Below are positions 8,516-63,583 of a stretch of 64,000 nucleotides of DNA, piece after piece. Numbering within the stretch: the stretch's first letter is position 1; every line of letters begins with the position of its first letter. The DNA lies in NCBI GenBank assembly GCA_012295275.1, contig CM022665.1:4526001-4590000 (forward strand), read 5' to 3'. The position numbers and the translations under genes were made by a program. A model generated the notes under the pieces. The model saw only the letters and a list, made by a program, of their open reading frames with translations. It was not told the DNA's origin and ran no database searches. The stretch is from Chrysomallon squamiferum. Taxonomy: Eukaryota; Animalia; Mollusca.

Positions 8516-9462
8516 TTATTCCATTTCATTCAGTTCACGGAGCATTCGCTGGAAGTCATCAGTAGAGATCTCAGAGTTTCCTGAAAAAAAGAAAAAAAAA
8601 GAATATATATATAACAACATGAAAAATAATAGATTTCATCATTTTGTACTAAATATATTAACTGTTCGTTACGCATTAAAGCTGATACGAAAATAAGTAA
8701 ATATTCACCAAGTCTATCATTTTTACTTGAGCACTTGTGTGTTAAATAACTTCTGTGCAATATGTTCTATCTTAAAAACCTTTCGATCCTACTGACACAT
8801 TAGGTTTTTTTAATTTTATTTTACTTCTTCTTAATGCTACTAATTGGAGAGTGAAAATATTTCTAGTTTTTGTTTACCTTCCTCGCCAATAAACTCCATG
8901 AAATCATCAGCGTCTCGTCGACTCATTATTTGTTCAAGTTCTTCATGGTTCAGGATTCCGTCCATGTTCGTGTCGATCTCCGAAATATCTGTAACAAATA
9001 GCTAAAGTCTGAAGTTTTACTTATATAATTTTATTAATAAACGACGCTTTTATTACTAGAAATTCTCAAACCATAATCAAATAGAATGTATTGATACTTT
9101 GTATGCATACATTGTTATGGAATCTCTCTGTTTTTACACACACACACACACAAACACACAGACACATACACACACACACACACACACACACACACACACA
9201 CACACACACACATATAAATACTGAAGATTATTTGTTCATTTTTAACAGGAACTAAAACTAAAACTATTTTAGAAAACCAACCTCGTTTTCCTTGGCTTGC
9301 AAGCCAGTCCTTTGCCTTCCTCTTAGCCCAGTCTAAAGCTTGACGTTTTGCCCAGTCCCTGACTCGCCTCCATCTGATTCGAATACGAAACCGACGCCAA
9401 GCATCGCTCTCGTTTAGAAAACAGAATGCCGCTACGAGTACAAGAAGCAGAGCAAGTTTCAT
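8516..9462 (-). CDS. Secreted cationic peptide/EF-hand precursor, subtype A copy 1 (118 aa)
   Basis: Coding exons 9462-9282, 8988-8878 and 8580-8516, all GT-AG and phase 1. Protein: MKLALLLVLVAAFCFLNESDA / WRRFRIRIRWRRVRDWAKRQALDWAKRKAKDWLASQ / GKR / DISEIDTNMDGILNHEELEQIMSRRDADDFMEFIGEEGNSEISTDDFQRMLRELNEME. Non-coding exon 1 ends at 9736; the non-coding last exon is near 8210-8110. Confidence 0.93.
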
Positions 9463-9735
9463 CTGAAAAACAAATAAATAAATTGAGAAGCAGCATACAT
9501 CACTTTCTTCGGTCTCTTGAATTGTTATTACATTTGTTTTTTCCTCTAATTTTGTGAAAAAAACAAAAAAAAAAAAAAACAACAACCCAACAACACAGTG
9601 TTAATAACAATAATCTGAGTATTATGTAAATTATTATACTATTTATAGATCTTTCTAAATCCTGTTTTAAAGAAATTAGTCTAAGCAAAATGTATCAGTA
9701 AATGTATTTCAGTTTAAATGAAATCTGTGACTTAC

Positions 9736-9882
9736 CTTTCAGCCGTAGGTTGTCAGGGAAAGAGTGAATAAAACTGTTGTTGTACTTGGCTACTTTATAC
9801 TAAATTGGTGTTGTTATTTCTTGTTTGATCAGTGACAAAGTGAGTAGTTTAATGCAAAAATCCTGTTATTGCAATCTGTTGC
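9736..9882 (-). promoter_or_regulatory. A1 core promoter and non-coding exon 1
   Basis: Motif GCAACAGATTGCAATAACAGGA (9882-9861), TATAAA (9799-9794), and a ~30-nt exon ending AAAG|GTAAGT at 9736. The same layout occurs before A2 (TATA 23711-23706), A3 (33175-33170) and A4 (51684-51679). Confidence 0.75.
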
Positions 9883-10705
9883 AAACACCAAATTAATTGA
9901 TAATTCATGTATGAACAACAGAAATAATTAGTAAGCATTTTGATAAATACTGGTACATTTAAAAATAATTTTAATTTTTCCTGCTAATTATTAAAAAAAA
10001 AAAAAAAAAAATAAAGATAAATAAAAAAAAAATAAAAAAATATAATTATTGTATGTTATATAGATTTTGTACCAATTTATTCTCAAGAATTTTCATGACT
10101 TAGGATCCATAATGGAAAACAAATACAATCATTATATAGTGTGAGATTTTCAAATATTACTTCGAAAATACCAATATAATTATGTTGTTAGTTCACAGTG
10201 AAAATACACACACAAACACACACACAGACACAGAGACATACAGATCCATTTAACTATTCAGATACATTCACGCCTGCACACACACACACACACACACACA
10301 CACACACACACACACACACATCCACACAAGCATACATTCGAATTACTCACACACATACATGGTACATACAAACACTTTTTTACAGATATGAACATGCAGA
10401 GATTATAACTATGCATATTAAAATATCCATTACTAACGGAAACCAAAAAATATAAATAAGAATACTAAAACAGAAAATTAAAAAATATATTCTTTTTATG
10501 AAAGTATTGCGAACAGTATAATATATATATGCGTATATGTGAACTAAAAACAACAGAGATAACAAGAACACAAACAAGAATAAGAAAACTACTGATACAT
10601 TTCTGACAGTTGTAATAAAATGAAATGATGCGGCGATTGTTTTGAGATTTGTTTACAGAAAATCGCCTTCAGCAAAATAACAGTTTTTCCTGAGACTATT
10701 AATTA

Positions 10706-60038: not shown

Positions 60039-60530
60039 GCAACAGATTGTTTTAACAGGATCTCTGTATTGATGTTTTCACACTTACTTCTTCATCATAG
60101 CAGAAACAAAATCACAATTTAGTATAAATGGATGGACTGCTATAACTACTTTATTAGCCTTTTATTTGTATAGGGATCAGTTTACAGTTCAAAGGTAAGA
60201 ACTATTTATATATTTTTTTTTTATTCTCAGATAACTTTATTAAGATGGAAAATATAATAAAGTTCAACAAAACTGTCACTGTTTGATGTGACTGGCTTGT
60301 GACTGCTGATAAAATTCACAGAGAAATTTAAATTCAAATTTCTGATTTAAAATGTAAATAACATTATATATCCTTATGTCATATTTGTTTGTAATACTGA
60401 CATTAACAAAACATTCATATTACTATTGTTGTTGTTGCCATTATTATTATTATTATTATTATTATTATGACAGAATGGATGCCAATAGTGAAAGAAATAT
60501 TTACAAAAAAATAAAATAAAACCAGAAAAT
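60039..60530 (+). pseudogene. Orphan D-type locus: promoter, exon 1 and a last-exon homologue, with all coding exons deleted
   Basis: Motif 60039-60060, TATAAA at 60123, donor at 60195, then intron-3-derived sequence (aagttcaacaaaactgtcactg...) and a CAG acceptor at 60471-60473 followed by exon-5-like sequence with AATAAA. Confidence 0.72.
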
Positions 60531-62775
60531 TGCAAATGTTTTTGTTTTTGTTGATTTATATTTAATTTATTGTATATTATTCTTAGACAAAATTAAATTT
60601 TTCAGTCTAGATAAACGTCTGAATTGGTGCTTTCATACTTACATGGAACAGAACAAATTATTTTGATATCGTTAGTGTTAGTTGTAAACTTTTAAAACGA
60701 CATAGTTTGTATGGAGACAATTTCTAATAAGCTCTGTGGTAGGTCAAACACAAGTTAACAGACGATACGTTTACGCATGCGTGTAACTGATACTTCAATT
60801 TATCTAATTGAAAGTCAGTCACGTTTTGCCACATAGCTGTTGTTTTCACAGTATGTGGAAACCAGATTTTATAAAAAGAAAGATAACATGTGTGATTGTA
60901 CTGTTAACATGATACTGACTATCACGTTCTGAAGATTAGTTATTCTTAACTGTTCTAACAGCATCCTGTTTCACATTATTCAACAAATCATAAATACAGT
61001 AGACACGCAGTTTAACAGAAAAGTTTTACGGGAAAAGTTTTGAGATAAGAATATTTGAATACTGTAAGAGAACAGTTTAAATAACATAAATACCTAAACA
61101 TGCAATATTTAATTGTTAGAGAGATAATTTTCTGTAAACTGATATACAGATTCGCAGTGTTTGGTGGGTGGGTGTGAATCATCCAATCACGCCATCCATT
61201 ACTAGCGGTTCATTTCAAGTGTCGTATCATCTGTTGAAGACATCCATTATTCCAGTGATACTGAGCAGCTTGCTTCAGACCTGCAATAATTAGTCTGCCA
61301 AAGTCCACTTAAACTAAATTTCTGGATTTATTCAGTGTGATTTAATTCACACGCCTGTGTATTTGCCGTTTACAAAGAAAACAAATGAAAACTGGTGTGA
61401 TGTGTCATGGTACCTTGTGTAGCTAAATACTTTGCAGCTGATTTATCATCAGCACTTTCCCGTGTTTTAGCACCAACCCAGGATCTTTGGGACTAGAATG
61501 GTCAACGCATTTCACTGATTGTGCATCTTTTTTTGTTTGTCAGTATCAGTCATCCGTCTGTTGCTGTTCACAGCATAAACATTTATTGCTCCGATATACT
61601 TTTCCAAAACAAACTGTTATTGGTCATGCATTGTGTGTGTGTGTGTATGTGTGTAAGTGTGTCTGTGCTTGCGCGTTCACCGGCATTGTTTTTCTGACAC
61701 CATCAGAAGTAACAAGAACGCATGTTAGAGCATGCAAAGTATTAATAAATTTTTCTGACGATTATGTGATAATTATTAAATTCTATTAAACATCACCTTT
61801 GCATCAATATTTTAAGAGTTATTTCCTCTACAAAATCACCACGTTTTGGTGAACTCAAACAGAATATGGAAATAATTATAGTACTCCTTAACGTTTGATC
61901 TAAAATGCTCATGATTTATTTTTGCACACACACACAGAGATAGATGTATATCTGATTTCTACAAAACCTTTTACTAACGAATATATTTCATGGGTAAATC
62001 ACTCTTAAACCTTTTCCTTTAGGTTTCAATAGATCATAAAGCTACAGAGCAAAATAAAAATAACAGAAAAGGAAAAAAGAGATAGACGAGTTTTCTATGG
62101 TTAAAACACATCTATGTAATCCAGCTATATGTTGCTTTCTAAACAAGCTACAACAACAAAAAAACTGTATGCGTTTATTTTTTTATTCAGTACGTGGGAT
62201 CTTTTCTTTAATTTTACTAAAGATCTTCATGTTCTTTCCAGTATAATCTGTCAAAGGAAAAATATATATTGATTCAAACAAATAAATATATTAACCGGAT
62301 ATTATTATTATTATTATTATTATTATTATTATTACTTTTTCAATACTTAAACAAAGTGCTCATCAGTGTTAATATGGAAAAAATATAAAATGATAAGAAA
62401 ACCGCATCAAAACATCGGACACAAATATGACCACAAAAAATAAATAAATTAATTAATAAATTAATTAATAAATAAATAAACAAAAAACCGATTGAATCAG
62501 ATAAAAAGAAACATAAAAGCAATTTATTATGCAATGAATAACTATTATCTTTCGAAAGTATAATAATAATAATAATAATGATAATAATAATAATAATAAT
62601 AATGATGATGAAGAAGAAGAAGAAGAATGATGATGATGATGATGATAATTATAATAACTGAGCCAAATAATATAAAAGTAAAAACAAAATAAAATAAAAT
62701 AATAAGAATAGTAACACGTATTTTGAATGAGACGTATAAGTAAAAAATTTCCAGTCAGACGAACCTCTTCTGTTT

Positions 62776-63583
62776 CTATTCCATTTCACTCAGATCTCTG
62801 ACCATTCTCTGAAATTCGTCAGTTGTAATGTGTGTATTGTCTAAAACAAACAAACATAAATAAATTATAATGTCCTCTAAGTATGAGCTCTCAAAGAATA
62901 ATAAAAAAAATATTATTTACCTATTTTAAATAGAAATATCTATTTTTGATAATAATAATAATAATAATAATAATAATTAATAATAATAATAATAAAAATT
63001 ATTATTATCTTATCCCTTTTAGAACAAATCTAAAGATTTTCCTTAAATATCTTACACTTGTAATATTCTTTATCATTAATACTAAATGTTTATTTAAGAA
63101 TATTTTCACCTCCGTCAACAAGAGCCAACAAATCCTCAGCATCTCGACGACTCATTATTTTCTCAAGTTCTTCTTGGTCTAACAGTCCATCATTGTTGGT
63201 GTCGATCTCGGAAATATCTGAAACAAATATATATTATACATAAATTAGAACTGTATTTAATTCTGACATGAGATTGTGGTTGATTGTTATTTCTCACATA
63301 CTCTCATTTCTTAAGCATGGTGACTGAACTTCAGTTTAAAAATCTGATGATTTTTCTCAACTTAAATTTAACGTGAACTAAATGGATATCCCGTTCCAGT
63401 GCATACCTCGCTTCCCTCTCGCAATCCAGTCTTTTCCTCTTCTGTAAGCCCAGTCTAGAGCTTTACGTTTTGCCCAATCTCTGACCTTTCTCCATCGGAT
63501 TCTGATACGAAACGACGCCAGGCATCAGCCTCGTTCAGGACAGCGAATACCGCTACGAGTACAAGGAGCAGGGCAACTCTCAT
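62776..63583 (-). pseudogene. Precursor subtype C copy 4, diverged, with a 1-nt deletion in the mature-peptide exon (pseudogene or assembly error)
   Basis: Exon 63583-63407 is 177 nt against 178 in C1-C3 (TTCGTATC versus TTCCGTATC near 63509), giving an early TAG. Exons 63217-63110 and 62840-62776 are intact. The promoter would lie beyond the window. Confidence 0.8.

What the first reader, a model, noticed from the sequence alone, without database searches (positions are those of the whole stretch)
8516..63583. 16-gene array of signal + Trp/Arg cationic amidated peptide + EF-hand propiece: candidate new host-defence or toxin peptide system
Seen: 16 loci with the same exon plan encoding a signal peptide (ending A/S/G-D/E-A), a 35-37-aa peptide with 4-5 Trp and net charge +9 to +11 (25 aa in variant E), G-K-R, and an acidic 57-58-aa tail. 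The ORF track hides this because the tail lies on two further exons. Established: G-K-R is the prohormone-convertase/carboxypeptidase/PAM amidation signal, and signal-cationic peptide-C-terminal extension is the layout of piscidins, styelins/clavanins and myticalins. Inference: a recently amplified antimicrobial or cytolytic peptide family. I do not recognise these mature sequences. I recall sea-anemone equinin precursors being described with a C-terminal EF-hand region, so the novelty of the architecture must be checked.
Basis: partly seen in the sequence, partly recalled or inferred. Interest (0 to 1): 0.92.

Follow-up and report, generated by a model that had tools for sequence, protein, structure and literature searches.

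The report
Snail antibiotic-peptide array with EF-hand tail

Summary
The array is real: 16 loci at 8,516-63,583, mostly head-to-head pairs. 13 are intact (signal + 35-37-aa Trp/Arg peptide, net +9 to +11 + G-K-R + acidic 57-58-aa EF-hand tail). Three are not: variant E (D-K-R, one Trp, no family promoter), one lacking its last coding exon, one frameshifted. An RNA contig joins the three coding exons of one copy and reaches both untranslated exons. Among copies, exons vary at 21 of 1,428 columns and introns at 321 of 2,480, so the copies are real and under purifying selection. The only full-length relatives found among 1.84 billion proteins are three uncharacterised genes of the vent snail Gigantopelta aegis, with the same layout, 35-60% tail identity and very different peptides. 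That conserved-frame, variable-peptide pattern and the exon plan match mussel myticalins; the EF-hand tail matches mussel mytimycins. Neither family's defining features are met. Best reading: an undescribed gastropod antimicrobial-peptide family (about 0.72). Processing, activity, tissue and the tail's role are untested. Verdict: new variant of a known kind.

The parts
8516..9462 (-). G1, type A; coding exons 9462-9282, 8988-8878, 8580-8516; 118 aa; 36-aa peptide, 5 Trp, +11
11295..12459 (+). G2, type B; exons 11295-11478, 11772-11882, 12395-12459; 119 aa; 37-aa peptide, 4 Trp, +11
13257..15280 (-). G3, type C, five exons: promoter motif 15280-15264, 5' untranslated exon ending near 15202, coding exons 14710-14533, 14290-14183, 13915-13851, 3' untranslated exon from 13279; 116 aa; 35-aa peptide, 5 Trp, +10
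   Evidence: RNA contig of run X8
16820..18184 (+). G4, type D; 119 aa; 37-aa peptide, 5 Trp, +9
22336..23286 (-). G5, type A, intact
24516..24816 (-). orphan type-C promoter and 5' exon with no coding exons of its own
26011..27391 (+). G6, type D, intact
31880..32801 (-). G7, type A, intact
35164..36167 (+). G8, type B, intact
37424..38264 (-). G9, type C, intact
40234..41576 (+). G10, type D', intact, +10
45036..45853 (-). G11, variant E: type-C signal and tail, divergent 24-aa peptide (1 Trp, 1 Cys, +2), D-K-R; no family promoter upstream
47371..47845 (+). G12, type B, exons A and B only; third coding exon deleted (junction near 48,101-48,107)
50373..51261 (-). G13, type A, intact
53260..54325 (+). 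G14, type B, intact
57958..58800 (-). G15, type C, intact
59661..60549 (+). type-D remnant: upstream region kept, coding exons absent
62776..63583 (-). G16, type-C-like, frameshift in exon A; upstream region would lie beyond the window

Best explanation
These genes are an amplified, spliced family of gastropod precursors that likely release amidated, membrane-damaging antimicrobial peptides, with an acidic EF-hand tail predicted to keep the peptide inactive until it is cut off. Shown: gene structure, splicing of type C, purifying selection, the conserved signal and tail around a variable peptide, one good EF-hand loop in every tail. Inferred from established secretory biochemistry: signal cleavage after Ala21; convertase cut at K-R, carboxypeptidase trimming and PAM amidation from the glycine. 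Inferred from composition and analogy: the +9 to +11, Trp-rich peptide binds anionic bacterial surfaces through an N-terminal strictly alternating Arg/hydrophobic stretch and inserts through a Trp-spaced C-terminal part. Least certain (about 0.4): the tail (net -12 to -16) folds as one calmodulin-like lobe that neutralises the peptide in calcium-rich granules. The cleavage site lies only five residues before the first calcium loop, so cutting would shorten the lobe's first helix and favour release.
For: Splicing: a 396-nt contig of RNA run X8 lies on G3 exons A, B and C with 1 difference; the A-B joint (GT..AG) is also in X11 and absent from DNA run X1; its loose ends match the 5' and 3' untranslated exons. 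Selection: exons vary at 21 of 1,428 columns, introns at 321 of 2,480; between types, peptide residues 1-19 have pN 0-0.05 against pS 0.15-0.78, the tail pN 0.03-0.18 against pS 0.09-0.61. Relatives: 3 of the best 150 hits match the whole exon in one stretch; they are uncharacterised G. aegis proteins with signal, Trp-initial cationic peptide (+9, +8, +3), G-K-R and a 58-aa tail. G-K-R is kept in all three G. aegis genes and in 15 of 16 window loci. The exon plan matches myticalin genes. Residues 1-11 have a significant 170-degree hydrophobic moment (p 0.004-0.012 in 5 of 5 non-E peptides, which are near-copies) and resemble the synthetic antibacterial motif FV7 (PMC5343874, abstract). The tail of the G. 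aegis model aligns with a centrin/calmodulin lobe (Z 6.8, rmsd 3.4, 61 residues).
Against: No activity, processing or tissue data exist in any call. The window's peptides have no significant classical helical amphipathicity (100-degree moment p 0.12-0.61; 0.48-0.75). AlphaFold draws exon A as one helix, against the beta reading of residues 1-11 (pLDDT 73, pTM 0.32). Each peptide carries 2-5 internal dibasic pairs, including R-W-R-R, which fits the furin consensus (recalled), so the mature form may be shorter. The second EF loop is degenerate in types A, C and D. Only 1 of 3 exon-B queries passes a Pfam cut-off. The fold match is middling (no Foldseek hit at E<=0.001; model pTM 0.32).
Confidence: 0.72

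Rival explanations
1. The peptides are cytolytic deterrents or digestive-tract lysins aimed at eukaryotic cells (predators, parasites, fouling larvae).
For: Same precursor logic; amplified copies with a variable peptide. Linear cationic cytolysins overlap with antimicrobial peptides (own knowledge).
Against: Very high Arg content and negative mean hydrophobicity (-0.21 to -0.60 on the Eisenberg scale) favour anionic bacterial over neutral membranes (own knowledge). No toxin-family hit for exon A in Pfam, PDB or the Atlas.
Confidence: 0.08
2. The acidic EF-hand piece is the working product: a secreted calcium- or metal-binding protein, with the cationic part as its pro-piece or as a second product.
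For: The tail is the part best conserved between species (exon B 18-22 of 37, exon C 7-12 of 20 identical); EF loop 1 is canonical in all 11 rows.
Against: Within the array the first 19 peptide residues are under stronger constraint than the tail; the amidation glycine is kept; loop 2 is decaying; conserved tails around variable peptides are the rule in myticalins and mytimycins.
Confidence: 0.08
3. A biomineral matrix precursor: acidic EF-hand plus Arg-rich peptide acting in shell or scale formation.
For: EF-hand domains occur in all three hard-part proteomes of two peltospirid snails (PMC11871041, passages).
Against: None of the 30 of 32 Pfam EF-hand rows seen in that paper's domain tables has the coordinates of this short precursor; the one look-alike is a four-EF calmodulin. 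Weak: the file is cut, motif searches of it found nothing but it may hold no sequences, and gene models may miss the family.
Confidence: 0.07
4. A neuropeptide, hormone or pheromone precursor.
For: Signal plus G-K-R is the standard neuropeptide signature (own knowledge).
Against: One long, highly cationic peptide per precursor, 16 tandem copies, and little peptide conservation between two of the three G. aegis genes and the window do not fit receptor-constrained ligands.
Confidence: 0.05

Closest known systems
Uncharacterised Gigantopelta aegis proteins LOC121370314, LOC121372037, LOC121369819 (XP_041351389/90, XP_041354215, XP_041350827)
   Same: Signal, Trp-initial cationic peptide, G-K-R, 58-aa two-EF-hand tail; exon A of type D is 31 of 61 identical to LOC121370314; an isoform breaks off where the window's exon B ends.
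   Different: No function assigned. Peptides lack the alternating Arg/hydrophobic start. The second EF loop is canonical there. The three genes group apart from the window's copies (100/99, unrooted).
Myticalins and modiocalins (mussels; PMC5577615, passages)
   Same: Signal + linear Arg-rich peptide + K-R + anionic tail; frequent amidation glycine; untranslated first exon, intron just before the ATG, phase-1 intron just after the dibasic site; multigene family with pseudogenes.
   Different: Founding myticalin and modiocalins are Pro/Arg-rich, genes have three exons, and the tail is not an EF-hand; here no Pro, 4-5 Trp, five exons, EF-hand tail.
Mytimycins (mussels; PMC8004829, passages)
   Same: Anionic EF-hand-containing extension right after a dibasic site; conserved tail whose role is stated to be unknown.
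   Different: Mature mytimycins have 10 or more cysteines and are reported only from Mytilida; here the peptide is linear with none.
Equinin B and its Actinia tenebrosa homologue (PMC11051070, section 2.4)
   Same: Signal + antimicrobial peptide + prodomain; the homologue is annotated with EF-hand domains.
   Different: Cysteine-rich peptide, two exons, cnidarian.
Synthetic FV7 and FV7-helix hybrids (PMC5343874, abstract)
   Same: Alternating F-R-I-R start followed by a cationic segment; the hybrids permeabilise bacterial membranes.
   Different: Designed peptides; the likeness is convergent and shows no activity for these genes.
Piscidins, styelins, clavanins (recalled, no call)
   Same: Signal + cationic peptide + C-terminal extension.
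   Different: No EF-hand tail recalled; no sequence comparison made.

Membership tests
G. aegis LOC121370314-like family (unnamed) | Signal + cationic peptide + G-K-R + two-EF-hand tail with sequence similarity over exons A, B and C | tested here: met
Myticalins | Signal, linear cationic peptide with >10% Arg, K-R site, anionic extension | tested here: met
   8-10 Arg in 35-37 aa; tail -12 to -16; definition
Myticalins | Untranslated exon 1, intron just before ATG, phase-1 intron after the dibasic site | tested here: met
Myticalins | Three exons; tail on one exon without a folded domain | tested here: not met
   five exons; EF-hand tail
Myticalins | Signal-peptide consensus and sequence homology to myticalins | tested here: inconclusive
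   By eye the signals do not follow the consensus quoted; no myticalin sequence was fetched or aligned
Mytimycins | Cysteine-rich mature peptide (10 invariant Cys) | tested here: not met
   0 Cys in types A-D, 1 in E; definition
Mytimycins | Anionic EF-hand extension directly after a dibasic site | tested here: met
Mytimycins | Common descent of the EF-hand tails | not tested
   no mytimycin sequence was in hand
Equinin B-like | Cysteine-rich mature peptide | tested here: not met
   sequence in the listing of PMC12842892
EF-hand pair (calmodulin-like lobe) | Canonical first 12-residue loop | tested here: met
   11 of 11 rows; Pfam E 6e-6 to 2e-4 on 36-aa exons, 1 of 3 over the cut-off
EF-hand pair (calmodulin-like lobe) | Canonical second loop and lobe fold | tested here: inconclusive
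   canonical in G. aegis, near-canonical in type B, degenerate in A, C, D; Z 6.8, rmsd 3.4, 61 aligned for the G. aegis model only
Antimicrobial peptides in general | Kills or inhibits microbes; processed and amidated in vivo | not testable with these tools
   needs peptidomics and MIC assays

The most novel reading that the evidence does not exclude
A vent-snail lineage family of secreted peptides used to police or select chemosynthetic symbionts, in which a calmodulin-like EF-hand lobe acts as a built-in calcium-dependent safety catch for a linear Trp/Arg peptide. It would be the simplest system in which to test what EF-hand tails do on antimicrobial precursors, a role stated to be unknown for mytimycins, and would imply that mussels, sea anemones and snails each attached an EF-hand to unrelated defence peptides.
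Probability: 0.2. Interest if true: 0.85.

Novelty: new variant of a known kind. Interest (0 to 1): 0.58.

Why it matters
Few gastropod antimicrobial peptides are listed in a 2025 review (PMC12466427, passages), and the two vent-snail genome papers checked contain neither 'antimicrobial' nor 'EF-hand' in their main text. A transcribed, selected, 16-copy family gives four short natural peptides that can be made and tested at once. The closest relative, G. aegis, lives on two bacterial endosymbionts (PMC7895826, abstract passage), so the family is a candidate for host control of bacteria. The EF-hand tail bears on an open point in the mytimycin literature.

Tried and rejected
Word-indexed protein searches found nothing: exon A type C among longer proteins (0 of 46 candidates), exon A type A at near length, exon-B alignment (0 of 1,281 candidates). 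The last missed relatives that one search found, so these blanks are weak. Atlas: no usable hit for exon A; for the G. aegis protein the best feature score was 0.79, a lead only. PDB sequence search with exon A: 1 hit at E 0.82, taken as chance. Earlier findings of this scan: none in 4 look-ups. Ten literature searches showed no description of this family; the 18 listed papers of 19 had 0 occurrences of three window motifs. The library lacks most subscription journals, and no peptide database (APD, DRAMP) or TSA could be searched. Passages read without relevant content: PMC11359391, PMC9334734, PMC7653742, PMC5549309, PMC3299671. A shell-proteome EF-hand at 54-82 looked like this family but is calmodulin; one supplementary PDF of that paper was unreadable and the main file was cut. 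The variant-E-specific segment (45,719-45,791) had no listed cover in runs X2, X6, X8 or X11, and type-A exon A had none in X8; contigs cannot show absence. No whole genome was held, so total copy number is unknown. SignalP could not be run; signals were judged by hydrophobicity and -3/-1 residues. G12 and G16 were left out of the codon counts; G11, G12 and G16 were left out. Assembly duplication as the source of the copies was rejected.
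Full report
1. Observation. The window is AT-rich (GC 0.24-0.37 per 2 kb) and full of microsatellites. A six-frame scan and tblastn with exons of the first two genes found 16 loci between 8,516 and 63,583. Each has the ATG directly after a splice acceptor. 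Exon A carries signal, peptide and the basic site and ends in phase 1. Exon B (108-111 nt) carries the first EF loop, and exon C (65 coding nt) the end. Four main types occur: A (4 copies), B (4, one truncated), C (3, plus a frameshifted and a variant copy) and D (3). Thirteen loci are intact with G-K-R. G11 (variant E) has D-K-R, a 24-residue peptide with one Trp and net +2, and no family promoter upstream. G12 lacks exon C, and G16 is out of frame in exon A. The 14 open-frame genes give 9 distinct precursors and 6 distinct peptides, and 28 of 28 of their coding introns are GT..AG.

2. Arrangement. Fourteen loci form seven head-to-head pairs, 1.5-2.7 kb from ATG to ATG. Each gene has its own TATA-like motif (15 matches, 0.17 expected; 14 before genes, one orphan) within a conserved upstream block. 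Two orphan upstream regions, at 24,516-24,816 and 59,944-60,228, have no coding exons. Duplicated blocks of 600 bp or more are 71-93% identical, so this is birth-and-death by unequal exchange (inference), not an assembly echo.

3. Expression. Of 14 runs listed, 12 hold part of the G3 region and one is on record as RNA. In that run (X8, library described as metatranscriptomic) 9 contigs were laid on 8,000-14,950. One 396-nt contig covers G3 exons A, B and C with one difference. The A-B joint has GT..AG ends, is also seen in X11 (RNA is the tool's guess) and is absent from DNA run X1. The same contig's loose ends match the end of the type-C 5' exon and a 3' untranslated exon at 13,279-13,257, which makes five exons. 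A plus-strand A-B joint is seen in X11. Other contigs carry an exon-C start with no match in the window at up to 3 mismatches, so more paralogues or alleles exist elsewhere. Contigs give no tissue or level.

4. Selection. Within types, exons vary at 21 of 1,428 columns and introns at 321 of 2,480 (13 genes). Between types, peptide residues 1-19 have pN 0-0.05 against pS 0.15-0.78. Residues 20-37 vary freely (pN 0.13-0.49), and the tail has pN 0.03-0.18 against pS 0.09-0.61. Exon A has no variable site in types A (0 of 181) and C (0 of 178), which suggests gene conversion on top of selection (inference). Variant E differs from type C at 30 of 82 nt in the peptide part, 4 of 63 in the signal and one synonymous site in the tail.

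5. Relatives. A profile of exon B scored 968 of 1.84 billion proteins at E<=0.001. Among the best 150, 147 are multi-stretch EF-hand proteins and three match the whole exon once. These three are uncharacterised proteins of Gigantopelta aegis (Peltospiridae), each seen on one 120.6-Mb contig. They have a signal, a Trp-initial peptide of 32-33 aa (net +9, +8, +3), G-K-R and a 58-aa tail of net -12 to -13. Tail identity to the window is 18-22 of 37 and 7-12 of 20. One peptide is clearly homologous to type D (exon A 31 of 61); two differ strongly. One model's N-terminal extension reads like an acceptor before the ATG, and an isoform breaks off at the exon B/C boundary, so the intron positions look shared (inference). 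Signal plus tail separate the 8 window rows from the 3 G. aegis rows at 100/99 (unrooted): separate expansions or concerted evolution. The window is therefore likely from a related gastropod; the species is not established.

6. Anatomy. Residues 1-11 alternate Arg and hydrophobic residues (170-degree moment 1.25-1.41, p 0.004-0.012). Trp then recurs at 16, 24 and usually 32, with a best angle near 90 degrees and no significant 100-degree moment. AlphaFold draws exon A as one helix at modest confidence, so the beta reading is unconfirmed. The G. aegis precursor model has a peptide helix 22-54 and a helix-loop-helix pair in 58-115 (pLDDT 68, pTM 0.32). That part aligns with centrin and calmodulin lobes (best Z 6.8, rmsd 3.4, 61 residues; best Foldseek E 0.015). 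Loop 1 is canonical in all rows; loop 2 is canonical in G. aegis and decaying in the window. Only five residues separate K-R from loop 1.

7. Mechanism. Shown: genes, splicing, constraint, architecture. From established knowledge: signal removal, convertase cut, carboxypeptidase and PAM amidation, as described for myticalins. Inferred: membrane attack on bacteria (0.72 for a host-defence role). More speculative: the tail, with charge roughly opposite to the peptide, masks it until cleavage (about 0.4; binding untested). Internal dibasic sites could give shorter products; variant E lacks the first 11 residues, up to one such site. Rivals: cytolysin 0.08, tail as product 0.08, mineral matrix 0.07, neuropeptide 0.05.

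8. Comparison. It works like a myticalin precursor and shares its first two introns, but fails on exon number and tail. It has the mytimycin-type tail but no cysteines. Equinin B is cysteine-rich. Ten searches found no description of this family, with the limits given above. Papers were seen as passages (PMC8004829, PMC5577615, PMC7653742, PMC7895826, PMC7736800, PMC12466427), one section (PMC11051070), abstract and outline (PMC5343874), listing only (PMC12842892), or passages plus supplement searches (PMC11871041).

9. Verdict. A real, transcribed, selected and apparently undescribed gastropod family: a new variant of a known kind. Interest 0.58; 0.85 if it controls symbionts through a calcium-gated tail (probability 0.2).

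Noticed in passing
window 2124-3656 (+) and 5900-7114 (+): Two long open frames (510 and 404 aa stop to stop) with no Pfam match at E<=0.1, upstream of the array.
   Followed up: partly
window about 21 kb and about 30 kb (+): The 3' end of the 5900-7114 frame recurs twice inside the array, so some duplicated blocks start within that neighbouring gene.
   Followed up: partly
window 27,500-31,300 (+): A 172-aa open stretch, with shorter copies near 42-44 kb and 55-57 kb, resembles a decayed Tc1-type transposase (resemblance recalled, not searched).
   Followed up: no
window 45,709-45,790 (-): Variant E: peptide part diverged at 30 of 82 nt while signal, tail and introns stay type C; either fast change or a segment from a paralogue outside the window. 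It has no family promoter.
   Followed up: partly
window 63,578-63,799: A 110-bp tandem duplication covers the start of G16 exon A and its acceptor; a similar partial repeat lies upstream of G3 near 14,706-14,830.
   Followed up: no
window 9,830-9,885 and equivalents: A conserved upstream block about 60-90 bp before the TATA-like motif is shared by all four gene types; its factors are unknown.
   Followed up: partly
exon A of types A and C: No variable site among copies (0 of 181, 0 of 178) although their introns vary at 8-18% of columns: possible exon-limited gene conversion.
   Followed up: partly
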